NCBI GenBank assembly: GCA_000002445.1 | Contig: CM000207.1 | Span: 1,344,001 to 1,408,000, forward strand | Direction of reading: 5' to 3' | Source: Trypanosoma brucei | Taxonomy: Eukaryota | DNA length: 64,000 nucleotides | In this document: piece by piece, positions 3,964 through 45,447 of the stretch | How the letters are laid out: every line of letters starts with the position of its first letter | Position numbering within the stretch: position 1 is the stretch's first letter | Notes under the pieces: generated by a model | Seen by the model: only the letters and a program-made list of their open reading frames with translations | Told to the model about the DNA's origin: nothing | Databases searched by the model: none | Position numbers and translations under genes: made by a program

Positions 3964-3991
3964 TTTTTTTTTTTTTTGGGGGGGGGGGGGG
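3964..3991. repeat. Homopolymer junction T14 followed by G14
   Basis: ctttttttttttttttgggggggggggggggtt seen directly. Confidence 0.9.
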
Positions 3992-11105: not shown

Positions 11106-11420
11106 TGCAAATCTGGGAAGAGTGGTGTCGTTAATGAAATTGAAAAACAGTCGCAAAAAAAAAAAGAAAAAGCGTATGCGTATGCGTATGCGTAGCTTAA
11201 AAATTACATCCATTTGTTTTCGCGCCAACGCATACGGGTTCGTGGTGACCAAAACAAGAAGTCGTTGAAGATACGGTTTTCAAGGAAAGAAAGAGATGGG
11301 AGGAAAAGAAAAAAGTTAGTACACAAACACATGCACGCGAACGCACAAAAGGAGCGGCAAGGGCAGATACACAAACGCACAGATGAAAAGGAAGAGAACG
11401 AAAAATAAGATCGAGTGATG
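11106..11420 (-). promoter_or_regulatory. Polypyrimidine tract / trans-splice acceptor region upstream of FBPase (minus strand)
   Basis: The plus strand is A/G-rich here (aaaaaaaaaaagaaaaag..., ggaaagaaagagatgggaggaaaagaaaaaag), so the transcribed strand is pyrimidine-rich immediately 5' of the FBPase ATG. This is the kinetoplastid SL trans-splicing signal. Confidence 0.4.
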
Positions 11421-11570
11421 GGAAGGACTGCTATCGAAGCAGCGAACAGGGGAAGGAGGTATCGAGAAGTGGAGGGATTAATAATAACAACGAAAATATT
11501 CGTACAGCTGCTTACAAACATAAACCCAACACCTCCTTCGAGGCTTCGGGTTCCCCTTTACTTTTTTGTT

Positions 11571-11630
11571 TTAATATATATATAAATATATATAAAGTAA
11601 TACATATGCATATATATATATATATATATG
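11571..11630. repeat. (TA)n-rich microsatellite
   Basis: atatatatataaatatatataaagtaatacatatgcatatatatatatatatat. Confidence 0.85.
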
Positions 11631-12556
11631 CACAACGCTGCCGGCATCTTTCAGGGGTTGGAAGGTAGAAGGAGGGAAGGGACAAAGAAAAACAGTAAGA
11701 ACAATCCCCCTTTCAAAAAAAAAAACACAAATAAAAGAAAGAAAGAAAGGAGGGTGAAGAAAAAAAAATTACAACAAAGTGCGCGAACGAACCAAGTGTC
11801 ACATTTCACCCTCGTTCATCAGTTACAGCCCCTCCTCCTTCTCCTTCTTCACATAACATCTTGCCACTCTCGTGCGCCCGCAACTTTTCAGTGGTCCACA
11901 GAATAAACGGCAAATCAGAACAAGAAGAAAAATAAATGAGAAGAAAAAAAAAAAGTAGGAATGCAGAAAGTACGACAACAGGTTTTGGAAATAAGGAACA
12001 ACCCAGCGGCCAGCGACAGTGAGTCACTCAAGTATTCGTAAGGGCCCACTCACCACGCAAACGAAACCCACAAGCCTCGTGCAGATTTACCACAAGCAAA
12101 CACCCCTCACTTTTCTCCCAAAAGGGCACCGCCGCTTATATCTCCCTGCACTTCACTGAACATCCTCTTGCGGATAATCATATTTATTACTTCTCTCACA
12201 TTCTGCTTTTTTTTTTTTTTTAAGCTTCCTTTCTCTTATCCTTCCTCTTTTTTCCCCCTTCTGTTTTTATTAGTGTTGATGACAAGAGCAACAATGATGT
12301 GGCGTGTCCGCATGATGCCCTTCTCCCTTCTCCCTGACACTCAACTCTCGGGTCAAAGGGGCGGAAATTGAGCCCCATTATTTCCCTATTTCATGGTATG
12401 AAATTACCCGACTGAACCGTCCCCACATTCCACCCATCCTCTGAAAGTTGGGTCGGAGGAAAGGAGGGATCACAACAAAAAACACAACAAAAATAAAGAA
12501 ATCAAAAGAGTGTCTGGAAGAGCGATTAAGAAGAGAAGTGCTTGTTCCTGACATAC

Positions 12557-12576
12557 GCACACACACACACACACAC
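12557..12576. repeat. (AC)n microsatellite
   Basis: cgcacacacacacacacacacgg. Confidence 0.85.
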
Positions 12577-13663
12577 GGTAAGTACATTTTGTTTTTTTTT
12601 CCTCTCGCTTTGCATTTCCCTACCCATCTATAAACATAAAAATAATAAATATGAACTCTTACCCTGTCATTCTTGAATTCACACACGCTTCGCCTCCTTT
12701 TCCTCATCCCTTCCTTCCTTTTACCTATAGCCCCTACACGATAGTCCTTCTCATACCACTGTTGCGTCTCTCATATTCTTTGTGTTATGAACCACGTACC
12801 GCTCTCATTTCATATATATTGTTGATTCACTCCATTTGTCTGTTTATTTATTTGTCTGTTTTTCTTTTTTTTTCTTTTGTCTTTTCCTTCTTACTTTGCT
12901 CAAACACATTCCGCACACTACAACATGTTGCCGTGTACTGACAGTTTTGCCTTGGTTCCCGAAATGTTCTCCCACAGTTTGCTTGTTTTCGTTTTTGCTT
13001 TCTTTCTTTTCTTTTATATGAAATTTCTCCACTGCTCGCCTTTCCCCTCTCCCCACACACAGACACACAGACACACACATTGAGTTTCACCTCCTTTTCT
13101 TCTCTCTTTTTTTTTTCTCTCTGATTCCTTCTCTTTTCATTGTTTCACCGGCACGCGGAGGGTCGCAACGCAGCCAGGAGGGAGAAAAGCCAAAGCAAAT
13201 GAAGCCAAAGTATGAAAAGAAGGAAGAGAGGGAGGGAGAGAAGAAATGAGAAGTGGGTGAAGGGAAACAACAAAACAAAAACAAAAGATGGAAAGAGAGC
13301 TCGAATGGAGTAACGCGCGGATCCGGACATGAGAAGAGCTTTGAGTGACAAAAGGGTAGAAAGAGAGAAGGGAAAAGAGAAAAAATGAAGAACCGAAAGA
13401 AAAAAAAAATAAAACAAAGAGAAAGCAGTACGGTACTAGATTTCACACTTATGTGATATTCGTTTTGGCTTCTCTCATTTTCTTTTTTTTCTTTTTTACC
13501 TTTAATTATTTTTTACTTATTATAATAATTATTTTTTGTGTGATTCGTCCCAACGCGCTTCTCCATCCCCGCACCTCTTCCCTCCCTTCTACACACACCC
13601 CACCTCTCTCCCTCTTTCTCTCGTCTCAACACATCGCAACTCCGTTAGATACATGTATTCCTC

Positions 13664-13745
13664 CATACCATACATATATATATATATATATACGTATATA
13701 TGTAAATAAATATATATATATATATATATTATTATTATTATTATT
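13664..13745. repeat. (TA)n / (ATT)n compound microsatellite
   Basis: tatatatatatatatatatacgtatatatg...atatatatatatatatattattattattatt. Confidence 0.85.
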
Positions 13746-14368
13746 TTTATGTATGTTGATTCGCTTACTTGTCTTTCTCCTTTTTCTGACAGTCTTTTTT
13801 TTCATTTTGATTTCTACCTATTCTTATTTGGCGTTCTTCTTTGTTGTTGTTGTTGTTTTTTTTTTCAACGATTCATATCGCATCGCGTTACATTAATAGT
13901 TCTTCTCCTATATATATATATATATATATTCGTCTCTCCTTTTTCCGAGTCGCTTCCTTTGATTATAAGAGTAAATCTACCGCTCTTTCATATATCTCAC
14001 AGCATCTTTTTTACTTCATCTCTCCTGACTCACTTTTAACCATATTTTTTTTATTTTTTTTTCGCACTTATTTTTTTGTTTTCTCACATTTTTAAATTTG
14101 GGATTCTTCTCTCACTTAATCTTATATAAGTCTTCATTAATTCATTACTCTGTTCCGTCCTCCTTTTCTCCCTCGATAGACTTTGTTTTCTGTTGGTCTC
14201 TATTTCTCCCGTCCCCTTGTATCACATTTCATTTTCTTCTCTCTGCCTTCACTTCTCGTTCTTCCCTTACTGTTTTACCCTCCATCAGATTCTTTTATAT
14301 TCGTACACTCGCTCACTTCCGTCTACTTCCGCTTTACACCAGTCTCGCTCGTACGTACATTGGTAAGT

Positions 14369-30553: not shown

Positions 30554-31684
30554 TCAAAAGCATTTGCTGTGTACGATGCTGGGTCCCGACTCGTCGTATT
30601 CACTCTTCGTTATCCACATCGACTGGAAGGTTGTTAGTGATGAGAGGATGGAACCGCCAATCCACACGCTATACTTGCGCTCCGGTGGTGCCACAACCTT
30701 AGGCTTGATCGATGACGGTGCAAGATTGCTGATCTCCTTTCCAAGTCGCTCAGGTAGGTTCTTGAACATCGTGGTACCGCCAGAGAGCACAATGTTGCCG
30801 TAGAGATCACGACGCACGTCAATGTCACACTTGTTGATGGACTGAAAGGTCATCTCATGGAACCCAGGAGCCTCATCAAGTCCAATGAGAGCAGGCTTAA
30901 ACAATGCCTCGGGACAGCGGAAACGCTGGTTCCCCACCTGCATAACATTGCCATCAGGAAGTTCGAACGGTTCTTCGCTGACAGATTTAGCACTGTTCGT
31001 CATCTCTTCGTCGAAGTCCAGTGCAACGTAGCATAATTGTTCCTTAATATTCCGCACGATTTCCTTCTCAGCGGAGGTGGTGAACGTCATACCAGTCTCC
31101 ATTAGGATCTTCATGAGATATTCCGTCAGGTCACGACCAGCCATGTCCACACGACGGATGGCATGAGGAAGAGAATAACCCTCATATATGGGCACAGTAT
31201 GTGTCACACCGTCACCAGCGTCGAGAACAATGCCAGTGGTACGGCCAGAAGAATACAGTGACAACACCGCCTGTATTCCGACGTACATGGCAGGTACACC
31301 AAATGTTTCAAACATAATCTGCGTCATTTTCTCACGGTTTTGCTTGGGGTTCATAGGCGCCTCAGTCAGTAGCACGTTGTGTGACTCAGGGTTGACGCGC
31401 AACTCGTTATAGAAGGTATGGTGCCAAACTTTTTCCATGTCATCCCAATTGGTCACAATTCCGTGCTCAATGGGGTACTTCAGCGCAAGCACACCACGTT
31501 TCGCCTGAGCTTCATCACCAACAAACAGTTTCTTGTTTGCACTTCCCATCATCGCTTGCTCATTTTTGGGGCGGCCGACGATGGATGGAAATACGTGGCG
31601 AGGAGCATCATCTCCGGAGAAACCCGACTTCACCATACCCGAGCCATTGTCACAAACTATAGCAGTTTGTTCCTCGTCCGACAT
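30554..31684 (-). CDS. ACT: Actin (376 aa), tandem copy 1 (stop codon TGA)
   Basis: Unmistakable actin sequence [40 protein letters not shown]...[10 protein letters not shown]. The ORF-track start is extended by 28 spurious codons. The true ATG is at 31682-31684. Confidence 0.95.
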
Positions 31685-31790
31685 TATTTTATGGCAGTAA
31701 CGAGACCTTACGTAAAGCAAAACTAAATAAGAGCGGAGACTGCAATGCAGAGTAAAAAAAAAAAACATGAATTTCAGAAGACCTTGCTGT
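30557..31790. repeat. Tandem direct repeat unit 1 (actin ORF plus ~105 bp of 5' flank)
   Basis: Aligns with 32071..33302 at an offset of 1514 bp. Only one synonymous difference was seen in the ORF (31425 t vs 32939 c). The A-run differs (A12 vs A10) upstream of the ATG. Identity ends at cagaagac. Confidence 0.9.
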
Positions 31791-32067
31791 GCAATGCTGC
31801 ATAGATAACAAACGCATCAAACACAACTGGTGGCACTATTTCAATCATGTCGACACACCAAGGCGAGAAAATTTGAGTTAAACAAGATGCCTACAACCCT
31901 ATATTTATTATCTTCAAGTGATCTTCTCTCCTCTTGTGCGCTGTACGTAAATGTGTTGCATATAAGGCATAGGGCTGAGTACAGGCACCACGCGCGAGGA
32001 AAATCATAAGCACTAGCCGTGTCAACTCACAGCAACTACAGAACAAATTTGGCCACACAACCCGGTG

Positions 32068-33198
32068 TTAAAAGCATTTGCTGTGTACGATGCTGGGTCC
32101 CGACTCGTCGTATTCACTCTTCGTTATCCACATCGACTGGAAGGTTGTTAGTGATGAGAGGATGGAACCGCCAATCCACACGCTATACTTGCGCTCCGGT
32201 GGTGCCACAACCTTAGGCTTGATCGATGACGGTGCAAGATTGCTGATCTCCTTTCCAAGTCGCTCAGGTAGGTTCTTGAACATCGTGGTACCGCCAGAGA
32301 GCACAATGTTGCCGTAGAGATCACGACGCACGTCAATGTCACACTTGTTGATGGACTGAAAGGTCATCTCATGGAACCCAGGAGCCTCATCAAGTCCAAT
32401 GAGAGCAGGCTTAAACAATGCCTCGGGACAGCGGAAACGCTGGTTCCCCACCTGCATAACATTGCCATCAGGAAGTTCGAACGGTTCTTCGCTGACAGAT
32501 TTAGCACTGTTCGTCATCTCTTCGTCGAAGTCCAGTGCAACGTAGCATAATTGTTCCTTAATATTCCGCACGATTTCCTTCTCAGCGGAGGTGGTGAACG
32601 TCATACCAGTCTCCATTAGGATCTTCATGAGATATTCCGTCAGGTCACGACCAGCCATGTCCACACGACGGATGGCATGAGGAAGAGAATAACCCTCATA
32701 TATGGGCACAGTATGTGTCACACCGTCACCAGCGTCGAGAACAATGCCAGTGGTACGGCCAGAAGAATACAGTGACAACACCGCCTGTATTCCGACGTAC
32801 ATGGCAGGTACACCAAATGTTTCAAACATAATCTGCGTCATTTTCTCACGGTTTTGCTTGGGGTTCATAGGCGCCTCAGTCAGTAGCACGTTGTGTGACT
32901 CAGGGTTGACGCGCAACTCGTTATAGAAGGTATGGTGCCAAACCTTTTCCATGTCATCCCAATTGGTCACAATTCCGTGCTCAATGGGGTACTTCAGCGC
33001 AAGCACACCACGTTTCGCCTGAGCTTCATCACCAACAAACAGTTTCTTGTTTGCACTTCCCATCATCGCTTGCTCATTTTTGGGGCGGCCGACGATGGAT
33101 GGAAATACGTGGCGAGGAGCATCATCTCCGGAGAAACCCGACTTCACCATACCCGAGCCATTGTCACAAACTATAGCAGTTTGTTCCTCGTCCGACAT
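32068..33198 (-). CDS. ACT: Actin (376 aa), tandem copy 2 (stop codon TAA)
   Basis: Protein identical to copy 1. ATG at 33196-33198, verified by reverse-complementing ttcctcgtccgacat to ATG TCG GAC GAG GAA. Confidence 0.95.
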
Positions 33199-33302: not shown

Positions 33303-36300
33303 ATAAATGTAACAATTTTTTGTACTGTTATGTCAAAATCTTTTTTCAATTACGGATATTTACGCAGTTATTAACTTGCAGAATGGCGGTAGTTCATAGG
33401 ATGTCATTTGATGGTAACAGCGTTTATTCTTCGCATTCGTACACCTTGATTATTTTGTAGACATCCCTCTTGGCTCATATGTTCGATATCTTATCTTTTG
33501 TTGAACCCAGTGTCGTAGAAACCAGTCGTTTTTTCGTCATCTTAATGTTGGTTAACGTTCCGTGGTAACTTCGTTGTCCCTGGGGGAAAGCGGCCGACAA
33601 TGTATATGTTCTCGTGGCTAGCGTCAACTTTGTGGTCGTTTTTTGTTATTACATCCCCGACGACAAGTGAAAAAGATGGGTGGCGTACGCGGCCGTTTGT
33701 CCTAGTTTAACAGAATGTACCGCCTATTTCACACTTATGGGTATTGACTGAACGCCGCATGCAAGATGTTTTAAACACCTCCAGGTTGAAGCAGTGTTAA
33801 CCAACCACGCCTAATGTTTTGAATGTCACGACCTTTGAGCATTTGGATACTGCAACCAAATAATCAAGCCGCATCATTATGATGTGACTGAGGAAAAAAG
33901 AAACAAAAATGTCCCGCTAAGGTTCCACATGCTTCACCAAAAGCGACCTTAAGCCAACAAGTGGAAGATGACAACAGCATCCTCAGGTTGCGAGAACACA
34001 TTGTTTCGAACACCATGTGTGTTTTCATAGTGTGTAAGTACAGCCCCTTGTCTGATTACCACGAAAACACAAGTGAGTTAGAAGCCTTACCATCTGGTGA
34101 AAGGTCAAACTAACTCATATACGTTCCTCCTTGTCGTAAAACAAAAACAACCAAATCGATTACTAAACAAATAGCAGAACAATCTACAAACAGAGGGAGA
34201 CACTCGGCGGACAATAGTAAATGAATAGTAGTTAGTTGAGAAAAGCATGTGTCCACCTTCCAACACGAAACAGTAGCACACAAGTTGTTGTTACATGAAA
34301 AAAGTGAAGCGAAAATATACGATGCCTCTTTTCCTGCATACAAAACCTGGGTTCCGGATAACCTGGCAGTACAAAAAAAAAAAAGTCGAACTACATCGTG
34401 CGTCAAGCTATCGCTGCAACAAACCCTCCCATATGATATTCAAAACCCATAAGATATATATTTCACCTACATACCGTGGGGAGAAAAAAACCAAATTAAA
34501 CGGGGTCAGGAAGATGCAGGTGGAATACCCGAGTAAATGCGAAGCACCCGGGCACGGTCGTCCCATATTCGAGACACAGTTTTAAAAACAAAAAAGCTGA
34601 TTAGATAGATCACTTTAACAAGGGGAGAATAGCCCATAACCCATTCACACCAGTCGTTCACGTGTAAAAAAAAAAAGGAATAGGTGTGAGAGTTTCTCTC
34701 TTACAAAAAATAAAAATTAAAAAGCAGGGACCCCGATGAGTGCTCTCTGTCCAGTAAGAGTGCCCCAACAAAAAGGTTACATCACAGAAACACAAAGTCC
34801 AGGGAGAAACAGGGTTAACGAGTGCATAGTGTAATACTTTTAAAACATAAAATTCGAGACAAATTGTGATTAATGCATGTTTCAAAAAATAATTTTATTT
34901 CCACCAGCATAAAGAGGAAAGTTCCCCATTCACCTCATGTTACAGCAGCGATAACGCTAGGAAACGCACTGGTCAGTTGATTTCCGTTCCGCTGAGTTTG
35001 ATAAGCTCAGGTGTGAATTAAAAACGTACTCACGACAATGCCGATGGTAAATCGGGTGAATAAAACATCTATGTATGCTCGAAAAACACATGACATTATA
35101 AATACGTCTCCATAGTGCCTACGGAGTCAAATCGAAGGAGGCTGTTGACGGAAATACACTACAAATCGTCAGTTTGAATCATTGCAGCACACCAATGAGA
35201 TCTGAAAGATGCAAAAAAAAAGTATATGTGTTTCTATGGTACTATCCAAAATAATAACTGCAGAACGACGTCTCAACAAAAGAAATCATAATTATAATAA
35301 TGTTAATTTAATAATGACAACATTAACTTCAGTATACTATATTTCATCATGAAGATTTTAAGGGTAGAAATCGGGTACAACACGCATCCGGAAATGTTGG
35401 AATCAACCCTTTATTCCCTCACCTGCATCGTTGTACAAGTTAATACTGAATGCGACATGAAAGTACGTCACCACAGACAACGTCACCTCAAAACGGTACA
35501 GACACTCCCAGCCGGTTGGGTTAAACAACGCCATGCTGAAACTTTTACCCAGAGCAAGTCTACATGCAACATGCTGTTAGGGCACAAAAGTGCATACAAC
35601 GACGTTACAATGATTTAGGTCGATTTTTAAAAATATGTTGCAAATGGTAAAGATGGAACGAGCAGAAACCTTGTCCAATCATCCGAACACTGTTATACAC
35701 CAGAAGTTTTAACAAATAAAAAAAATAACGATCACCCACTTTGCGACAATTATCCCTTAAACCCATATACTTACGGGACAATAGAAGACACATTTCTCTG
35801 AAGTAATCCGAAGTGACTCATCCGCATCATTAGGTCCCCATAAAAACTACAATGGTGGAACCTTCAGAAGTGAACGGGATCATCCACATATGCAAAGCGG
35901 ACGAGTTTAGTCATTCAATTAATCATCGGCATGTACTGTGGACGTCCGACGACCTATTTCCTGTGTTCCGGTGAACATTCAAGTGCAACACGATGCCCAC
36001 TAGAAGATCCCTCAAAATCTTCTTTGCATGGAAAACCCAGAAAAATACTTAACCATCAGAACGAGCGGTGAATAGCGACATCACACTAATTACTCATCTA
36101 CCACTGGGCAAGGGCGGGTAGAATATTTTTTAAAAAAAATGAATGTGATGGAGCCTGTGCATTACCTTGATGCAGTAAATGGCACGCCCAAGCACTTGCA
36201 CCGAAACGTTCACCACCGAAGAAGGGTATTATACGCGTAACAAATGTGGGCGTCTTTTCGGTGTATCCACCAAAACCTTCTAGCAGTGTACTGTATTCCC

Positions 36301-37140
36301 AAAGGGGGAGCAAAGAGAAATGAAGACCGAACTCATCATAGGGAAGCGGATCAATATTGATACATCAAAGTTGGGCTGTTGGTTAAAAAAAAAATGGAAG
36401 TTCACCGACACAAAAGAAATCTACAAAGAGCCACACCACCATCAAAAAAAAAAAGAAGGAAAGTGGTGACATGGGTTTATTTAAGTTTTCTTTACATCAC
36501 CACTCGACAACAACGCGAACTCAAAAAAATGGTGCGAAAGAGGCAGCCAAAAAGTTCACCAACGATCGCTCTTGCAGACGGCATCAAGTGGAGCAGATGC
36601 TTCCTTTCCTTCCCGAGTTTTACGCCACCATAGTGTGGCATACGAGGGACCCGGGACACCGATGGGTTTGAATGGCATATTTCCAACCATCCCACTCACA
36701 CTCATGAATCGGAACAGAGTCAACTGGTCGCAGCGAGGGCAGTGGTCATTGCGAAGTGTAAGCTTCCTACAATAGCTGTTCGATACCGCAAATTCGTACA
36801 TGTAACCACAACGAAAGCACGAAAACAACGCCATCCTGCCGATATCCTAACAGAGAAGTTGAAAGGCGAAGGGGAATTTTTTGCTTTCAACACAAACGCA
36901 AGTGAGAAAGTCCAGACGGGGAGAAAGGGGACATACTTCTAAGAAAATGCGTGCTTCAGCATCGCCTAGGTCATGCAGGCGCACGCACACATATACGTAG
37001 GCACCGGCAGCGCAAGGGTTTCAGCATAGCCTCCAAGCGACAGAACCAACCAAATACCAACCAACAAACGGTACAAAAGTCACCCATCACCCACCAAAGG
37101 AGCCACACCAACGGTGGCAACTTCTTTCCTCCCTCTCCAG

Positions 37141-37167
37141 CCCCCCCCCCCTTTAAAAAAAGGGGGG
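37141..37167. repeat. Quasi-palindromic homopolymer block C11-TTT-A7-G6
   Basis: ccccccccccctttaaaaaaagggggg seen directly inside the GC-rich island. Confidence 0.9.
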
Positions 37168-40100
37168 CGCTCATCCTCGCACGATTGATAAAAGGAGGTA
37201 CGTCACACGCCCCCCGAGTGCCCCCGGCCCGACAAATACCCTTCAAAGATAAGACAAAAGACCAGCGGCGAAGTGGGGGGCCACACACACACACCGCAGC
37301 CGAAGCAACCCACCAGATTTTGTGGTGGCCCTCCCGTTCAAAGCGACCTGCACCAGCGCCTTATCATGCTCGACACCCAAACCCGCCGACAGGCGCCGAA
37401 GGACCGACACCGTAACTATGATCCGCATTCCACACCTGAGCCGAACCCCAGTAAAAACAAACAAAACACACGAAAATACGGCCCGCCCACGAGCGGAGGT
37501 GGGTGTGGACGGCCCCGCGGCAACAGATACAACCAGCATCCCAAAAACGCTCACAACAGGCACCGGCTCCGCCCACCACTCACGACGAGCCGGTCCGCAC
37601 ATGAGGTTAGTGGAAGAAAAAAAAACAACGGTCCAGCACAACGCCACTAGCACCAACACCAGGCAGGGCCAAACCTTTGACGAAGCAGTGCTCCACGGGC
37701 ATGGGACCCACGCGAGCCTCCGGTTTCTCGCAAAAGTAAGAGGTCATAAACATTGGCCCCACAGCGGGGCCCCAGCCGCGGTGCCAAAGCAGCGACAGGC
37801 CAATCCCCACACACGCGGAGTCCCCACCGCCACTGGCGTACGAACCTTTAATTGTTGCGAATGCGGCGGCCAGCCGCCCCCATGCACCCCGGGCCCCGAG
37901 CATCAGAGCAGCCGGATGGCCGCCCAGCATCGGAGAGAAGGCCGGTGGCAACACCACCCACTGTCCCTGGGGATGGGGGAGGGACAATGAACGAAATACC
38001 CATTCAACACTTTCCTCAACGCGTGGAGAACGGTGACGGGACCAAATGCAAAAAAAAAAAAGAAGAGCGCACACTAACCACATGATGCGGGCGCACGGCG
38101 TCGGCGGAACCGCCTGCACGGGGTGGGGGCATAGCGGCAGGGAATGGCGTAGGCGTCGCGAAAGATCTAAGGGCAATAAGATGTGTTGAAGTCAAACCTG
38201 CCGAACGCCTGTTCAATCGCGAAGACCAGACAACATTCGTGTCAACATATTTCCACAAATCAACTATCCTTAACCAATAACGGCTGAGGACGTTGAATTC
38301 GACGGAGGGCCGCTCATTGTGGTGTGGACATGAGTTCCCGCAGCCGACCGTGGAACCGAGCCACCGCTTCTGGAAAAGCAGTCGAATGCGCGGTTCGATG
38401 GCGCCCGAGAGGGGAAAAGAAGATCACCGGAGTGCAGCTCTTCCCTCGCATTACTTAGACACTGTATGAAGTAGGAGGGGCTGTGGTGGAGGCGGAAGAA
38501 AGGTAGCAGCAGCGGATTCACCGGCAACACACACAGGGCAAACGTCAGCGGAGGCCGCGACGGGCCCATTCTGGTCACAACCTCCAGCGCATCATTCACA
38601 CGTAGCAAGACTGACCCGAACAGCTTGGCAATAAAGCGGCGTGCAAGAATCGCAGAAAAGATACGGGTGGTTCCTAAGGCGGAGCGGGTGGGAGAAGCTA
38701 AACCATTTTATAATCCACACTAAGAATCAAGGCACAAAAAAAGCATCTCCCGTGGGGGAAGAGCGTGTTGACGACATTTTCCCGGCCAAAGGGCCCAACC
38801 TTATCGACCCAACAGCAGAAAAACTTTCTAGCACCTCGAAGAAGCAACAACGGTGGGCAAGGTGAACTCAGCGGTGAAAGAAACGACCCCAAGGCAACAC
38901 GAATACAAAACAGAAAAACTGGAAGAGGCCGAGGCAGGAATGTGAGACCTGGCTGCCGCGGCACTTGCACCACGGACGTTGAGCACATTAGTTGTAGGCG
39001 TCAAAGAGCAGAAGCCAACAAAACGGCGGTAAGCAGATGCTGTTGCGGAAATGTACTAAAAGAGGCTCAGAAAGATACGGCGAGCTCCGAGGGTGGAATT
39101 ATCAGGGGTAACAAACTATAAGTCTAAGTTGTTTGATTACGGAGGAGCGGAGGTTGACACAGAGTGACGTATACGCTGGAACTGCACCTAGAGAAGATTG
39201 CACACACGGAAAGAAATTGTAGAACCTTGTTTGGAAAGAGAGGAAATGCTTCGTGAGGTTTTATAATCACCGCGTGGAACACGGCGGAATACCCGGGCGG
39301 GGGTGAGAAGGGCGGTAAAACATCACTCTCGGGAGACAGAAAAAGCTTGCAAAAGAGGCGGCGGCAGCCCGAGAAGCGGCCCTTAGAAGTGTTTTCTCCA
39401 AGTCGATGAGGGGTTGATTGGCAGTACACTGAAAGGTCACTTTGATCGGTTGCTTACATCAAAGAAACCGCCGTTTATGCCAAAGCACCAAGCAGTAGAC
39501 ACCAAGTTTTTGACGTTTGGTGAAACAAGGTGGAGAAATGGGGAGACAGCAACTGCTTTCATGGATCGTGCAAGAGCGACCGGCTCAATGGATCGTCGGG
39601 GGATCACTCACTGTGGTTTTAAATCGCTGCGATGCGCATCTCCGCTTAGCGAGACGGATAGGACAGTTGCCGCATAACCGAAAATCCAAAATGAAGATGA
39701 GCAACGCGTAGCCAGGAGATTTCCTCGACCTTAGGGGTGTGGCGGGAATTTGTCCTCGAACCACTTCTGGTCGCTGTGATAATGGAAGCATAATAAGAGG
39801 CACTGATCGGAGCACAGGGATTAAGCATACCTTCCTTGCAAACGGTCCAATCGTCATACGCGCCGGCAGAGGTCTAAAAAAATTTTGAGCAAACGCCACG
39901 GAGGGAGCCTCGGTTGTGTGCCAATGAACGGTCGAAAAGACCTTTCGTGGAAATTTCGGCTGAAGAGGAATGCACAACGTCTCGGTGCTGCCGCGCAGCT
40001 GAATGGACTTTTGAGTGCCTGAGATGCTGGTAAACAAGCCGAATGCACCTAATATATCGAGCCTTACTTCACAACTGGTTAAGATCGCCGTGAAGCGTGT

Positions 40101-43054
40101 TCAAAAAATTTTAAGCCACCAAATCGAAACCTCCCAAGCCGTTTACAGATTCCTCAGTGTGGTAGGGTCGTGGGTACGACATTCCGTGGCTGTTTTCATC
40201 TCGCGTTGGCCCCATCGCACGGCAGGGACGGGAAAGAACTACGGTGTTTGGATGTCTTTGAGCGTGGTTGGGGAAACCCCACTGCTGCAGAGCGCTACTC
40301 GAGTTACATCATAGCAAGCGCGTTGCGAAAGGCGCGGAGAGGGGAGGCCCTCTTTTTAAGTTCCCCCGCTTATTGCCGCAACTGTGACGCGCAACGTTGC
40401 ATTTTGTGCTAATGTGGAGGCTGTGGGACAGGAAAATGCGACGTTGCGAAGCCGCACCCTGTCGTATGCGAAGCCACCTGGTTTTCCGAGTTGACAGCCG
40501 CTCGCCACGAACGGAGGGCCCTCTTTATTGTAAAACCCAAACAAGGAAGCAGAGTTCAAGACGTGAAAATGGGGGAACACCGGACGGTCGCGTCGGGAGG
40601 CCGCTGTGAGCGACAAATACGCTCTCCAGCGGAAACATCGACCTCGTCATCAACCGACAGTGCGGCGCCTTTGGTTTGCTTTGTTTCACAAGGCGTGCAT
40701 GCGCACATCGCAGCCGCCACGCAGCCTTTTTCTTCGCACAGGTTTTGTTGGTGCGGAATGAGCGCCCAAAAAGGTTGGTGCACGTAGTAATGGCCAAACT
40801 TAACCGAGGTCTACGCAGTTCGAAGGCGCCGCACATATATGCATATGCGTTGCGCCATGTTTCCCTAAAGTTGTCCAGTGGGTGAGCGTTTTTCTTTTTT
40901 TTTTCTTCACGTATGATGGCCGCGCCTGACTACCGCTGGCTTTGGATTTGGGGAACCGGCGCGCACTAACGAAATGCTGATCGCCGTTGCGTTCGGTGTT
41001 CTCGTTGACTTGTGGGATGTTTACGAACGCGAACTCTGTGGAAAGTTGAAATAATTAAGACGAAAATGCCTTATGGCAGCGCTGCGGATGATCAGGGAGC
41101 TACAGAAATGGAGGAAGAGGAGAATGTGATCGGGAATTCTTTCTTTCCCTTTAGTGACGTACACGGATGGTGGTTGGGAAATTGTTGGGATACGCTTTAG
41201 GAACGCCTCTGGCGGTGTCCGAAGATTTTTTTTTTCGTGCTGGACGAGGCGGGGGATAACTACACCAATAACTTTTTTTTTTTAAAGGAAACAGTTCGGA
41301 AACGGAAGTATCTCTATAACTCAATATCAGGGTACGACAAAAATCTGAACGCGCGGGGTAAATATAAGGGGGTGCGGTCTTCCTCTCAACTCATCACTTC
41401 CCCCTGTTTGTTTTACTGCTGCCTTCACTCCATGACAACGTCGGTATCATAGGGCAAAAATGCAAACATGTACTCTCCCGTATGGATGGGCGATCATGGA
41501 GCACATCACCGCACGCGATTGATTATTTTCCACCACCAAAACGAAAAAAAAGGGGGAAAAAAGACATGCGTAGCGCACAGTGTGTGTGAACACAGCGTTG
41601 AGTTCCAAAAGTTCCGCTTCACCACCTCATTGCGTTTTCTTTTCTCCCCCTTTCCTCAAACCCTCCAGATGCACGAAGATATCGGAATGAAAAGTAAGAG
41701 AGGGTAGAGACGTCCGATATGTGGCCCTGCAAACGCTAAATGCGACACGGCCCACAAAATGTGATAATATTCAGTTTTGTCACAATATACTGAGATCTCT
41801 CATACATTGGTCCTTTACCGCTCGAACCAATGGTGTGTGCCTTCATTTCCACTTTAGGCTTCACTGCCGTTATTCCGGTGATGATCAGAAGTTTGTATGA
41901 CTCCAGCACTGCGGATAATTCGCATTAGATATTTTACAGTAATTAGTGAGGCATTGATGACCATGTTGCCTTTAAGAACTGTACAGCATATTAGCAACAA
42001 TGACCTTATTCGAAAGATGGAGGGTATACCGCCCGTTCCTCTTCCCCTTCTCCATCCTTGTTGTGGGCAGAAAATAGCCTTGTGACCTGCTTCCAACAAG
42101 ACCTTTCATCTCCTACTGACTGATAAGGTGTTAACCGTAATGCACCGCTGCCAATATCAAAAATAAAATTAAAAAAAACCGCCATAGCCCTGTTCAATCC
42201 ACCTTTGCGCTATGGAAGGAAATTTGTCATCATCGTGCACGTTAAAACTTTTCCTCCCGATCCATAGCACCTGCATTTGCGAAGCCAGTACCATTGGGAA
42301 TTTAAAATAGTTTCATCACCCCTCCCCGCCTCGGTAAAACACCCAAACGGACCACGCATTGGCGCGTGAGGCGGACTCCAACAAGTCACAGACGTACACG
42401 CACATACATACATGAGAGTAAATGAGGCGCAAACCTACTTCTGTCTATCTTCACTTCCTTGGTTTTTAGCTTCAATAACCATGCGTGCTCCAGTCAATCG
42501 ATGCAGCAGTGACATTTTCTTGAATCAGCCTCGTATCACTGAATTGTGCAGCAAATGTACGCGCGAAACGCTGGGGATACCTCCGCATAAAGACATAATC
42601 GTCTCGTCCATGGGATCGCTGCGTGAGACTTTTTCGTGCGTGGGCAAGAGCTCTGCGGCAGAGCAAAGGCACGGAGGTGCAAATGCGATGTTTAACTGCT
42701 TTCATATTTATCAATGTCCTTCACATCTAAGCCATATCACCAAACTTTATCCTAACTGCTAAATGTATACGTGTGAACTCAAATAAACGATGATGTGGGA
42801 ACAAAACGGCAAATCTCCATTGGACCGTATTACATCAGGAGAAAGTTACCAAGTGAGTGTCGTAGAGCATTTCGAAACACTATTAGTGCTATTATTACAA
42901 AAACCTCACGTATTGTGTTGATGACGTGGTCATAATGACCAGTATTCTTGTTCCCCTTTCCCCCCTCCCCAATCCACCACACCGCTTTCTTTCTTTTCTT
43001 TACGTAGGGGTGAATCGCAACAGCCAAGTCCCGGTGAAACACCGATCGAGCTAT

Positions 43055-44338
43055 TCATTTCCGTTTCTTATTTTCCTCCTTAATGGCATCGAGCCGTTGG
43101 GCGAGTGGTGGATGAGAGTAGTGCAGCGCAGCGAAGAGCGGATCGGGTGTAAGCAAGTTCTTATTCTCCTTGTGTATAACCATCAGTCCTCTTATAAGCG
43201 GTTCACCATACCCAGAACTAACGGCGTACCGATCCGCCTGGAACTCAAATTGACGAGTCACGAGTGACACAAGATAACCCAGGAGTGTGTTAATGGGCTC
43301 CAAAAACACTTGGCTGAACAGCTCGAAACCAATGAGCGGATTGGCATCGCTGAACCCAAACTGCTTGTACAAGTCAGTGTTGAAAATTACGGCCTTTGCG
43401 CCGTATGATATACACCACGTTTGAGCAACCATAAAACCGAAGAAGAATTTGTCGTGGGAGTTCTTCCAGTGGCCGAGCTCGTGGCAAAGAACGGCAAGCA
43501 GCGCGTCGTGATCATCCTTCGTCTGCTCAACGATCGTATCATACAAAACAATGTGCTTCGACCAAAAACCATAGAAGTACGCGTTGCTGTGACCCGAGCG
43601 CCGCGAACCATCAACTTCGTATAGTTTCTTCAAAGGAAACTTGTGCTTTTCAGCGAGTGCATATATCTTCTTCCCCAACTCACCGTCCTTCGGTATCGGC
43701 GTGTACGTGTTGAATAGGGGCTGGATGAAAGTGGGGTAAACGAAGGTGAAAATGGTGATCAGGCCCGTCGCACCGAGGAAAAAGTAAAATGGGAAATCCT
43801 CGCCGAACAGTTCCACCACCTTGAGGATGAGCCCACTGGTCAGAACGTGCAACAGAGTCAGGCGAAGCAGAAAATACTTGGCAACGTCCAGAAAGAATTC
43901 CTTGCGCGTCATTTTGTTGAACCCATGTTTCTCCTCGATCACAAATGTTGAGTAGTATTCAAAAGGAAGGCTTATGAGTGTCGTTAGCACATCCGTTGCG
44001 ACGGCGTAAACGTAGCAATGTGAAAAGGAGCCCGTAGCCCCTGGTAATAGTTGGCCAAGGGATCCGTACAACTTGGCGGGCAGTTTTGCCAGCAGGGAGA
44101 CGTTGCTTATGACAATGTCCTTTACGTGCAACAAGATTGAAAAGCTGAGTTTCTCCCTTTCGTACTCCTGAGTGGTACGGAACTCCTTCTCTTCCACGAC
44201 GCCGACAAGGTGTTCAGGCATCTTTGCATTCGCGTATGCTTTACGCTGCCGGCGTTGAAGGTAAAGGTCCCACAGCGCCAGCGCATTGAGGCCGATCAGC
44301 GCCGTACCGTAAAATGTCATCCCACCCCACGCAACCAT
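43055..44338 (-). CDS. STE24: CAAX prenyl protease 1 (STE24/ZMPSTE24, peptidase M48)
   Basis: HExxH zinc motif in LLAVLCHELGHWKNSHD. Multiple N-terminal hydrophobic helices. C-terminal HPPLAQRL typical of STE24. Confidence 0.85.
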   Translation of the reverse strand: MVAWGGMTFYGTALIGLNALALWDLYLQRRQRKAYANAKMPEHLVGVVEEKEFRTTQEYEREKLSFSILLHVKDIVISNVSLLAKLPAKLYGSLGQLLPGATGSFSHCYVYAVATDVLTTLISLPFEYYSTFVIEEKHGFNKMTRKEFFLDVAKYFLLRLTLLHVLTSGLILKVVELFGEDFPFYFFLGATGLITIFTFVYPTFIQPLFNTYTPIPKDGELGKKIYALAEKHKFPLKKLYEVDGSRRSGHSNAYFYGFWSKHIVLYDTIVEQTKDDHDALLAVLCHELGHWKNSHDKFFFGFMVAQTWCISYGAKAVIFNTDLYKQFGFSDANPLIGFELFSQVFLEPINTLLGYLVSLVTRQFEFQADRYAVSSGYGEPLIRGLMVIHKENKNLLTPDPLFAALHYSHPPLAQRLDAIKEENKKRK

Positions 44339-45447
44339 CTTTTATTATCTTTTATTTTTTCGTTCACAGCCTTTAACTTTCCGCCAGTTTCTTCCCTCTT
44401 TGTTCCACTGCAAGTCGGAAACCCTTTGTCAAAGTCTGATAGTTTGGGAAGAAAGGGTAATAATGACATAAAAGCAAAGGTGAGGAAATCAGAAAAATGA
44501 CCAATCAGTCGCATCACTGGAAACGGTGTCGATGGCTATGGAGAGGGAGAGTTTGTATTTGTGTGGAAATGTGCCAATTATGAGTAGAAGCTACAATGGG
44601 TGCGTTTCAGCATTTCCTGCACGGAATAACTCACTGGATTTGTCGACATAAGCCCACATACCGAGAAATCGGAAGTGAATTATGGATCCGACACGCCACG
44701 CATCAAAGACTTTCCTTAAAGAGTAACATAGTTATGGCAACGCCAGGGCACGAAAACGGTGCCGTCACGAAGTGGGAGCATCAAATGTTACTAACCACCC
44801 GCCACGACACCGTTAACAACCCTGTCGGCGCGCCGTGTGTTTATGTGTGCGTGCGTGCGTGCAAGAACAAAAAGGATGGAAGGTTTCCGCCATGCAGACC
44901 CCTTCCCTCCTCCAACCAATAGCGGGGCCACTGACGGAAAAACCGCTACAAGGGAATATTGATATTTGGTGTTACCACATGCGTTAGCACCCTCCCACCG
45001 CATGTATTACACAATCCCCTTACCGCGCATGCCGCCGCCGCCCCTCATGTATGTTGTTTCACTTCCCCATAGCCACCGCTACATATGTGTACTTGTATAC
45101 ATATTCGTTAACAAACATTCTCGTCTTGGGATAGCACCACGACAAAAAAAGGGAAGAACAATGGCACATATACCTTCGTTGGCGAGCCCGCATCTATGTG
45201 CAAGACATGCGGGGGTGTGAGAACGGTGACAGATACAATCACTGCAATGTGAAACCTTGATAGGTACAATAATTCTGTACATCCTTCGCCGAAGCTTCGT
45301 CTAAAAACCACCACCCCCGCCACGAGAATGGCCCGACTATAACAACGTGGGCACACCTCGCAGACGCTTAGGGAGGAGGCGTTAAAACACAATCACTTCT
45401 AACTCTCACGTTCATAGTTTACTTCTGTACAAAAACTACCTAATCAT

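What the first reader, a model, noticed from the sequence alone, without database searches (positions are those of the whole stretch)
36950..38700. GC-rich island with strong G+T skew on the transcribed strand inside the ORF desert
From ~36950 to 37700 the plus strand is heavily A+C rich (ccaaataccaaccaacaaacggtacaaaagtcacccatcacccaccaaagg...). The transcribed minus strand is therefore G+T rich. GC-rich sequence with many CG/GCGG motifs continues to ~38700, unlike the AT-richer flanks. In African trypanosomes, GT-rich sense-strand elements at Pol II start regions have been reported to drive transcription and H2A.Z deposition. An internal start site for the downstream actin-containing part of the unit is one plausible reading. 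A structured ncRNA or a relic of a GC-rich gene is an alternative.
Basis: partly seen in the sequence, partly recalled or inferred. Interest (0 to 1): 0.6.

Follow-up and report, generated by a model that had tools for sequence, protein, structure and literature searches.

The report
Known internal Pol II start region upstream of actin
The GC-rich, strand-skewed island is real and marks a published internal RNA polymerase II start region that begins the actin-containing gene cluster on Trypanosoma brucei chromosome 9; the only new point is that its upstream half is a 2.2-kb segment also present at the next such boundary.

Summary
Window 37001-37750 has the highest A+C content of the 64 kb (0.66, so the transcribed minus strand is 66% G+T). 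Window 36951-38700 has the highest GC content (0.58).

The window is T. brucei TREU927 chromosome 9 (window x = chr9 x + 1,344,000). Kolev et al. 2010 (Table S14) already list an 'Internal' Pol II unit starting at actin B and a preceding unit ending at the CAAX protease, so a start site was already placed in this gap. Their transcript map leaves only 36847-38799 of the gap without a processed RNA, which matches the island.

The island carries the window's only coding-strand G run of 10 or more. It also holds the densest cluster of the GT/G-rich 10-mers that Wedel et al. 2017 found at start regions. Directly downstream lies a conserved 92-aa gene, which in T. cruzi and T. melophagium is the first gene after a divergent strand switch and has the same GC-rich, A-poor island upstream.

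I found no coding relic, Rfam match or excess RNA structure.

One side finding appears new. Window 37812-39977 is one of two 98-99% identical copies, and the other copy lies in the next internal start region 135 kb away.

The parts
36950..37811 (-). Unique core of the island. The sense (minus) strand is 64-69% G+T, GC 0.52-0.62, A about 12%. Proposed promoter-proximal part of the start region.
   Evidence: composition; top A+C window of the 64 kb. (7 of the 39 minus-strand hits to non-T-rich Wedel 10-mers lie here). (no copy elsewhere in the window or fetched loci).
37141..37151 (-). G11 run on the coding strand, the only coding-strand G run of 10 or more in the window. It forms the one G-quadruplex-type motif of the gap together with 37131-37140.
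   Evidence: GGGGGGGGGG is the most enriched 10-mer in the 5' fifth of start regions (132 coding-strand against 17 non-coding occurrences) in Wedel 2017 Dataset EV1.
37281..37298 (-). (GT)n tract, CGGTGTGTGTGTGTGG on the coding strand. It matches the second and fourth ranked start-region 10-mers of Wedel.
37812..38700 (-). Upstream, GC-rich (0.52-0.66), weakly skewed half of the island. It lies inside the two-copy repeat.
37812..39977 (-). Copy A of a 2,166-bp direct repeat. Copy B lies about 134.85 kb upstream on chr9, in the next 'Internal' start region between PACRGB and Tb09.211.1400.
36847..36949 (-). Pyrimidine-rich tract ending in AG (36849-36848). It is the trans-splice acceptor of the first mRNA of the unit.
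   Evidence: Sequence. The 5' end of Tb9.NT.56 is at chr9 1380846 = window 36846.
36556..36834 (-). Conserved 92-aa protein with two CxxC pairs (transcript Tb9.NT.56, 36403-36846). It is the first gene downstream of the island.
   Evidence: (orthologues in T. cruzi and L. major). Only weak zinc-binding Pfam hints.
33334..36331 (-). Three processed low-abundance transcripts without conserved ORFs (Tb9.NT.53, NT.54, NT.55), lying between the small gene and actin B.
   Evidence: Kolev Table S7. No relic of the EMP70 gene that sits here in T. melophagium.
30554..33198 (-). Actin A (30554-31684) and actin B (32068-33198).
38800..42777 (-). Long low-abundance transcript Tb9.NT.102. It starts 120 nt after the CAAX protease poly(A) site and ends inside the repeat. 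Read here as the tail of the upstream unit.
   Evidence: No Pfam domain in the plus-strand frames of 39000-43054.
43055..44338 (-). CAAX prenyl protease (Tb09.211.0680), the last annotated gene of the upstream unit.
40676..41425 (+). Patch where the plus strand is the G+T-rich one (0.56-0.58, z 2.2-2.4), the mirror image of the island. It may be the antisense half of a formerly divergent start region.
   Evidence: Inference from the divergent arrangement in T. cruzi and T. melophagium.

Best explanation
The island is the core of a non-divergent (head-to-tail, 'internal') RNA polymerase II transcription start region of T. brucei chromosome 9. It begins the polycistronic unit that runs from the small 92-aa gene through actin B and actin A down to Tb09.211.0040.

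Proposed mechanism, with status of each step:
1. The upstream unit (ending at the CAAX protease) runs out over 42.8-38.8 kb as the low-abundance transcript NT.102. This is inferred.
2. The G/T-rich, G-run-rich, A-poor coding strand of 36.9-38.7 kb favours open chromatin with H2A.Z/H2B.V nucleosomes. It supports dispersed, mainly sense-directed Pol II initiation, as shown for GT-rich elements by Wedel et al. 2017. That this applies at this locus is inferred.
3. The nascent RNA is first trans-spliced at the AG at 36848-36849. This acceptor is published.
4. That gives the 92-aa-protein mRNA, then three non-coding RNAs, then the actin mRNAs.

The presence of a start site in this gap is published. 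Its placement on the island is inferred from composition, motif content, the transcript map and comparison with other species.
For: 1. Identity of the locus. Exact protein matches to TREU927 entries. Three independent coordinate checks give the offset 1,344,000.
2. Kolev 2010 Table S14 lists Tb09.211.0630 -> .0040 as an 'Internal' Pol II unit and the previous unit as ending at Tb09.211.0680. The paper states that such sites show 5'-triphosphate read enrichment and coincide with the histone marks of Siegel 2009.
3. The processed transcripts of the gap are NT.53-56 at 33334-36846 and NT.102 at 38800-42777. Only 36847-38799 is left bare.
4. The island is the window's extreme for coding-strand G+T and for GC. 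It has 12 coding-strand G runs of 4 or more per kb against a mean of 3.0, and the only G run of 10 or more.
5. Of the 39 coding-strand hits to the non-T-rich subset of Wedel's start-region 10-mers, 9 fall in 37001-38000 and 12 in 37001-39000. The next best 1-kb bin outside the island has 3.
6. Wedel et al. show that such GT-rich elements drive orientation-dependent transcription and H2A.Z deposition.
7. In T. melophagium and T. cruzi the orthologue of the 92-aa gene is the first gene after a divergent strand switch. It is preceded on its coding strand by a GC-rich (0.62-0.69), A-poor (4-9% A), G+T-rich (0.61-0.74) island. There is no alignable sequence outside the coding region.
8. An 'actin promoter' is cited as the one described Pol II promoter for protein-coding genes. 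The reference is Ben Amar et al. 1991.
Against: - I saw no read-level data (5'-triphosphate RNA, Pol II or H2A.Z ChIP) for these coordinates. Table S14 only places the start between two genes 9.8 kb apart.
- Start regions are broad. Initiation could be spread over more of the gap, or centred in the repeat rather than in the unique GT-rich part.
- Kolev et al. placed multi-mapping reads pseudo-randomly. Signal inside 37812-39977 cannot be assigned between the two repeat copies.
- The island is no better conserved than its flanks between T. brucei strains: about 2.1% substitutions against 2.5% downstream and 1.3% upstream.
- The 1991 promoter has been regarded as not unequivocal.
- My recollection that it lies about 4 kb upstream of the actin genes (which would be about window 37200) could not be checked, because the paper is not held.
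- The 10-mer count includes overlapping hits within single runs.
Confidence: 0.85

Rival explanations
1. The island is mainly the termination zone of the upstream unit (base J, H3.V/H4.V region). Initiation of the actin unit would lie elsewhere in the gap, for instance further downstream toward 33-36 kb.
For: Head-to-tail boundaries need a terminator just upstream of the start. NT.102 ends at 38800, inside the GC-rich part. The repeat containing 37812-38700 also follows the last gene of a unit at its other locus, at a similar distance (2.95 against 3.08 kb).
Against: The first trans-spliced mRNA of the downstream unit begins at 36846, so initiation must lie upstream of that. The coding-strand G/GT 10-mers typical of the 5' end of start regions are in the island. 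In T. cruzi and T. melophagium the same kind of island sits at a divergent strand switch, where nothing terminates. The two roles may coexist in different halves of the island.
Confidence: 0.1
2. The GC-rich part is a passive piece of a segmental duplication or of a very degenerate ingi-type retroposon (DIRE). Its composition would be inherited rather than selected, and its position at a unit boundary would reflect where such DNA is tolerated.
For: 37812-39977 is a two-copy repeat. A weak reverse-transcriptase-like stretch lies on the plus strand at 39393-39593: 29% identity over 69 aa, E 0.024, with two collinear RT motifs. The locus is a synteny break relative to T. cruzi, T. melophagium and the locus L007/L008.
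Against: No Pfam RT, endonuclease or RNase H domain in any frame of 36400-39700, nor in the plus-strand frames of 39000-43054. No target-site duplication or poly(A) at the repeat ends. The most skewed, motif-rich part (36950-37811) is not repeated. The same compositional island exists upstream of the orthologous gene in two distant species.
Confidence: 0.1
3. The island encodes a structured non-coding RNA.
For: It has GC-rich sequence and no credible ORF.
Against: No Rfam family at gathering score in the window, and none at E<=1 in 36400-39000. No tRNA. Folding energies are no better than shuffles, with z -0.43 and +0.16. No processed transcript was mapped here.
Confidence: 0.02
4. The island is a relic of a GC-rich protein-coding gene.
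For: ORFs of 119-222 aa occur on both strands, and three are annotated.
Against: They overlap on both strands, as expected from stop-codon depletion. They carry the label 'hypothetical protein, unlikely' and have no detected transcript. No Pfam hit. A full HMMER search of 1.84 billion proteins with the 189-aa ORF found only itself and one T. b. gambiense ORF, whose cluster also holds the equivalent ORF at the second repeat locus. The genes that flank the orthologous site in other species (EMP70, methyltransferase, LRR protein, DOT1) left no trace.
Confidence: 0.03

Closest known systems
Non-divergent ('internal', head-to-tail) Pol II transcription start regions of T. brucei (Siegel et al. 2009; Kolev et al. 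2010; Wedel et al. 2017)
   Same: It lies between two same-strand units and is listed as such in Kolev Table S14. It is free of ORFs and mRNAs. The coding strand is G/T-rich with a long G run at the upstream end, and it is followed by the first splice acceptor.
   Different: Nothing essential differs; this is one of the listed sites. Two things were not noted before, to my knowledge: its upstream half is shared at 98-99% identity with the next internal start region, and the orthologous site is a divergent strand switch in T. cruzi and T. melophagium.
The 'actin gene promoter' of T. brucei (Ben Amar et al. 1991, Nucleic Acids Res 19:5857)
   Same: It is the same locus and the same claim: a Pol II promoter upstream of the actin genes.
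   Different: I could not read the paper, so whether its active fragment coincides with 36950-38700 is unverified. My memory of 'about 4 kb upstream' would fit about window 37200. Later authors treated it as not unequivocal.
Synthetic GT-rich promoters GT_210 and GT_416 (Wedel et al. 2017)
   Same: Built from the same 10-mers that occur on the coding strand here (G runs, GTGTGTGTGG, GGTGTGTGTG, GTGGGTGGTG). They act in an orientation-dependent way.
   Different: Those are dense artificial concatenations of 210 and 416 bp. Here the 10-mers are scattered over about 1.5 kb of natural sequence that is also unusually GC-rich.
Dispersed CpG-island promoters of mammals
   Same: A broad GC-rich region without a focused start. 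Initiation is bidirectional with sense bias, and histone variants are deposited. Kolev et al. draw this analogy themselves.
   Different: There is no CpG enrichment here (observed/expected 0.92). It drives a polycistronic unit of dozens of genes, and no regulation is known.

Membership tests
T. brucei non-divergent Pol II transcription start region | Lies at a boundary between two polycistronic units on the same strand | tested here: met
   All long ORFs of the window are on the minus strand. Kolev Table S14 ends one unit at Tb09.211.0680 (window 43055-44338) and starts the next at Tb09.211.0630 (window 32068-33198).
T. brucei non-divergent Pol II transcription start region | Enrichment of 5'-triphosphate RNA and of Pol II at the site | not testable with these tools
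   Only the published summary table and text were available. Read positions were not.
T. brucei non-divergent Pol II transcription start region | H2A.Z/H2B.V nucleosomes, H4K10ac and BDF3 over several kb | not testable with these tools
   Kolev et al. state that their sites coincide with the marks of Siegel 2009. Siegel 2009 is not held.
T. brucei non-divergent Pol II transcription start region | No genuine ORF or processed mRNA within the initiation zone, which is followed by the first trans-splice acceptor | tested here: met
   36847-38799 is the only stretch of the gap without a processed transcript. The first acceptor is at 36846-36849 behind a pyrimidine-rich tract. The ORFs inside are 'unlikely' and untranscribed.
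GT-rich promoter element (Wedel et al. 2017) | G- and T-rich 10-mers, especially long G runs, enriched on the coding strand at the 5' end of the start region | tested here: met
   G11 at 37141-37151. 9 of 39 coding-strand hits to the non-T-rich 10-mers fall in 37001-38000, and none on the other strand in 36-40 kb. Coding-strand G+T is 0.64-0.69.
GT-rich promoter element (Wedel et al. 2017) | Orientation-dependent reporter activity and induced H2A.Z deposition | not testable with these tools
   This needs an experiment.
Sequence-specific 75-bp core promoter (Cordon-Obras et al. 2022) | Presence of the functional motifs defined in that study under a Pol II ChIP peak | not tested
   The paper is not held, so the motifs were not available to search.
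ingi/DIRE non-LTR retroposon relic | Recognisable reverse transcriptase, endonuclease or RNase H coding remnants | tested here: not met
   No Pfam hit in six frames of 36400-39700. Outside the island, a single weak tblastn match at 39393-39593 (E 0.024) has no Pfam support and remains inconclusive.
ingi/DIRE non-LTR retroposon relic | Poly(A) tail and target-site duplication at the ends | tested here: not met
   The breakpoints of the 2,166-bp repeat show neither.
Structured non-coding RNA | Match to a known family, or folding energy beyond shuffled controls | tested here: not met

The most novel reading that the evidence does not exclude
The 2,166-bp segment that forms the upstream half of the island (37812-39977) may be a functional boundary or promoter cassette. 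It was copied between two consecutive head-to-tail unit boundaries of chromosome 9 and is kept nearly identical by gene conversion. If so, internal Pol II start regions in T. brucei can arise by duplication of an existing start-region module. The 135-kb unit Tb09.211.1400 -> .0680 would then be a segment bracketed by direct repeats of that module.
Probability: 0.2. Interest if true: 0.55.

Novelty: already known. Interest (0 to 1): 0.3.

Why it matters
The finding itself re-identifies, from raw sequence alone, a start region that experiments had already placed upstream of the T. brucei actin genes. This shows that coding-strand G+T skew plus GC richness is a usable sequence signature of such regions. 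It does not change what is known.

Two by-products could be useful:
- The same compositional island precedes the same small first gene in T. cruzi and T. melophagium without any sequence similarity. This supports composition rather than a motif as the conserved property at this site.
- Two consecutive internal start regions share a 2.2-kb module that evolves in concert. This gives a concrete pair of loci for testing how internal start sites arise. It also warns that multi-mapped reads can blur start-site maps at both loci.

Tried and rejected
Negative searches on the sequence:
- Rfam at gathering score over the window and at E<=1 over 36400-39000 gave nothing. No tRNAs.
- No internal repeats in the gap beyond chance pairs.
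- Pfam on the four long island ORFs, on all six frames of 36400-39700 and on the plus-strand frames of 39000-43054 gave nothing.
- RNA folding z-scores were unremarkable.
- tblastn with the T. melophagium EMP70, methyltransferase and LRR proteins and the T. cruzi DOT1 protein found no relics in the gap.
- Sensitive alignment of the flanks of the two repeat copies found no residual similarity.

Papers that could not be read:
- Ben Amar 1991 and 1988, Siegel 2009 and Cordon-Obras 2022 are not held.
- The supplements of Wedel 2017 and Staneva 2021 carry no chr9 coordinates.

Look-ups that gave little:
- The CAAX protease look-up returned only short Logan contigs, one of them chimeric beyond window 42972.
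- The actin homologue search was swamped by fused or multi-domain actins and gave no trypanosome loci.
- Short Logan contigs with orthologues of the 92-aa gene were too short, or showed an ordinary intergenic spacer in an unidentified trypanosomatid.
- The TREU927 second repeat copy could not be fetched, so I used the T. equiperdum copy instead.
Full report
**What is there.** The plus strand of 36950-37700 is A 0.30, C 0.36, G 0.22, T 0.12. The minus strand, which carries every long ORF of the window, is therefore 66% G+T and only 12% A. In sliding windows, 37001-37750 is the most A+C-rich 750 nt of the 64 kb (z 3.5), and 36951-38700 is the most GC-rich 1750 nt (0.581, z 2.6). The skew is confined to about 36900-37700. 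The stretch 37700-38700 is GC-rich (up to 0.66) with little skew. CpG is not enriched (observed/expected 0.92), whereas GCGG/CCGC and G/C runs occur two to three times more often than elsewhere.

**Where the window comes from.** The two 376-aa ORFs at 30554-31684 and 32068-33198 are actins, and 43055-44338 is a CAAX prenyl protease. The supplementary tables of Kolev et al. 2010 (PMC2936537) give poly(A) sites and 3'UTR lengths for actin A, actin B and Tb09.211.0680. These place the three stop codons at chr9 1374554, 1376068 and 1387055, which is window 30554, 32068 and 43055 plus exactly 1,344,000. ORFs in the island are identical to TREU927 entries named 'hypothetical protein, unlikely'. The window is therefore T. 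brucei brucei TREU927 chromosome 9, 1,344,001-1,408,000.

**What is already published for this gap.** Kolev Table S14 lists Pol II units defined by 5'-triphosphate RNA enrichment at the sites marked by the histone variants of Siegel 2009. One unit runs Tb09.211.1400 -> Tb09.211.0680 and the next runs Tb09.211.0630 -> Tb09.211.0040. Both are on the minus strand and both are of type 'Internal'. A start site was thus already placed between the CAAX protease and actin B.

Their Table S7 lists the processed transcripts of the gap, all on the minus strand. In window coordinates they are:
- NT.53: 33334-34202
- NT.54: 34287-35271
- NT.55: 35360-36331
- NT.56: 36403-36846
- NT.102: 38800-42777

The only part of the 9.8-kb gap with no processed RNA is 36847-38799, which is the finding's island. 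NT.56 encodes the 92-aa ORF at 36556-36834, conserved in T. cruzi and L. major (Table S9). Its 5' end follows a pyrimidine-rich tract and an AG at 36849-36848. The three annotated ORFs within 37243-39857 are in Kolev's list of ORFs without a transcript.

An 'actin promoter' has been cited as the only Pol II promoter known for a protein-coding gene. The reference is Ben Amar et al. 1991, and others considered it not unequivocal. I could not read that paper. My recollection that it lies about 4 kb upstream of the genes, which would be about window 37200, is unverified.

**Does the island look like the start-region elements that have been tested?** Wedel et al. 2017 found that 10-mers enriched on the coding strand at the 5' end of start regions are G- and T-rich. 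Synthetic promoters built from them drive orientation-dependent transcription and H2A.Z deposition. I took their Dataset EV1. Using all 157 10-mers is uninformative, because many are T runs found in any intergenic spacer. With the 72 that are not T-rich, 9 of the 39 coding-strand hits in the window fall in 37001-38000 and 12 in 37001-39000. Outside the island the next bins have 3, and there are no plus-strand hits in 36-40 kb. The top-ranked 10-mer, G10, occurs on the coding strand only at 37141-37151. The second and fourth ranked occur at 37281-37295. Coding-strand G runs of 4 or more reach 12 per kb here against a mean of 3.0. Overlapping hits within one run inflate these counts somewhat.

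**Alternatives.**
- *Structured RNA.* There is no Rfam match and no tRNA. Folding energies equal those of shuffles.
- *Coding relic.* The Pfam scan found nothing in six frames. The ORFs on both strands are explained by stop-triplet depletion, 23-24 per kb against 36. A full HMMER scan of 1.84 billion proteins with the 189-aa ORF found only itself and one T. b. gambiense ORF.
- *Lost neighbouring genes.* Genes that occupy neighbouring positions in other trypanosomes left no trace.

**Comparison with other species.** In T. melophagium (L006), the orthologue of the 92-aa gene is followed by EMP70, four actins and the orthologue of the 1053-aa protein. It is preceded by two genes on the opposite strand, so it is the first gene after a divergent strand switch. 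T. cruzi (L017, L018) shows the same arrangement, with an LRR-protein gene on the other strand about 1 kb upstream.

In both species the 100-600 nt before the gene are GC-rich (0.62-0.69 against 0.43-0.46 locus average). On the coding strand they are A-poor (4-9% A) and G+T-rich (0.61-0.74). In T. melophagium the skew is mirrored further upstream. Nothing outside the coding region aligns with T. brucei.

The start of this unit, and the compositional island in front of it, are therefore probably ancestral in Trypanosoma. T. brucei differs in having the CAAX-protease unit joined head-to-tail on the upstream side. In T. cruzi and in the locus L007/L008, the 10 kb downstream of the CAAX protease holds neither the small gene nor actin. 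In T. melophagium two opposite-strand genes intervene. In T. brucei a patch at 40676-41425 has the opposite skew, with the plus strand G+T-rich (z 2.2-2.4). This may be what remains of the antisense half. In one unidentified trypanosomatid the small gene sits behind an ordinary same-strand gene, so the arrangement is not universal.

**An unexpected feature.** The 90-aa ORF at 39585-39857 clusters with a 130-aa TREU927 protein encoded elsewhere on chromosome 9. The 99-aa ORF Tb09.211.0660 is identical to Tb09.211.1420. Fetching the second locus from T. equiperdum IVM-t1 (L019) showed that window 37812-39977 (2,166 bp) is repeated there at 98%, in the same orientation, with sharp ends. It has no poly(A) or target-site duplication, and the flanks show no similarity.

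From the ORF coordinates in Kolev Table S2, the TREU927 copy B lies at about chr9 1,516,660-1,518,825. That is between PACRGB (Tb09.211.1470, last gene of one unit) and Tb09.211.1400 (first gene of the next), which is the next 'Internal' start region of Table S14. The 135-kb unit between the two boundaries is thus bracketed by the two copies. The spacing is similar at both loci: about 3 kb from the last gene to the repeat, and 0.9-1.0 kb from the repeat to the first ATG.

Within IVM-t1 the two copies are 99.4% identical, whereas each is about 98.1-98.2% identical to the TREU927 copy. At 30 sites the two IVM-t1 copies share a base that differs from TREU927 and OVI at locus A, against 8 sites private to copy B. 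That pattern indicates gene conversion between the copies. T. b. gambiense also has ORFs at both loci.

The upstream, weakly skewed half of the 'island' (37812-38700) belongs to this repeat. The strongly skewed half with the G run (36950-37811) is unique. The only hint of ancestry is a weak reverse-transcriptase-like match on the plus strand at 39393-39593 (E 0.024), which has no Pfam support.

This matters for reading published maps. Kolev et al. assigned multi-mapping reads pseudo-randomly, so signal inside the repeat cannot be attributed to one locus.

**Verdict.** The feature is a known internal Pol II start region, historically the actin promoter locus, with the GT-rich coding-strand signature described in 2017. 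The exact placement of initiation on 36.9-38.7 kb is inferred. A termination role for the upstream (repeat) half is not excluded. The shared, concertedly evolving 2.2-kb module at two consecutive internal start regions is the one element I could not find described. It deserves a genome-wide check.

Noticed in passing
window 37812-39977 (minus-strand sense); copy B in L019 10002-12257: A 2,166-bp segment is present twice on chr9, at two consecutive 'Internal' Pol II start regions about 135 kb apart, in the same orientation. The copies are 98-99.4% identical, and site patterns indicate gene conversion between them. Flanks are unrelated and the ends show no retroposon hallmarks.
   Followed up: partly
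window 36556-36834 (-), transcript 36403-36846: A conserved 92-aa protein with two CxxC pairs (Tb9.NT.56) is absent from the original TREU927 annotation. It is 71-79% identical in T. melophagium and in orthologues from unidentified trypanosomatids, clusters at about 90% identity with T. cruzi and T. grayi proteins, and gives only weak zinc-binding Pfam hints. It is the first gene of the actin unit.
   Followed up: partly
window ~37971: TREU927 lacks 82 nt that are present in both T. equiperdum assemblies at this locus and in copy B of the repeat. The missing piece is flanked by the short direct repeat CCCCCGTC, so it looks like a microhomology deletion. It lies between the arms of a 7-bp inverted repeat, TGTCCCT...AGGGACA.
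   Followed up: partly
window 39393-39593 (+): A weak reverse-transcriptase-like stretch (29% over 69 aa to an RVT_1 ORF of locus L007, E 0.024) has two collinear RT motifs. Pfam does not support it. It may be a very degenerate retroposon relic inside the repeat.
   Followed up: partly
window 40676-41425 (+): The plus strand is G+T-rich here (0.56-0.58), with three T runs of 10-11. This is the reverse of the island's skew and resembles the mirrored halves of a divergent start region, although no plus-strand gene follows.
   Followed up: no
L006 (T. melophagium), L017/L018 (T. cruzi), L007/L008, L009-L011: The junction between the CAAX protease unit and the actin unit is specific to the T. brucei group among the loci fetched. 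In T. cruzi and T. melophagium the actin unit starts at a divergent strand switch next to an LRR-protein gene. EMP70 lies between the small gene and actin only in T. melophagium.
   Followed up: partly
L001 1458-2683: A Logan contig matches window 42972-44405 exactly and then continues into a mitochondrial-carrier gene that is not in the window. It is probably a chimeric assembly.
   Followed up: no
window 11253-14368 and 3974-3991: There is a second stretch without long ORFs, with a very AT-rich patch at 13701-14200 (GC 0.28) where the plus strand is G+T-rich (z 3.0). There is also a G run of about 14 on the plus strand near 3978. Neither was examined.
   Followed up: no
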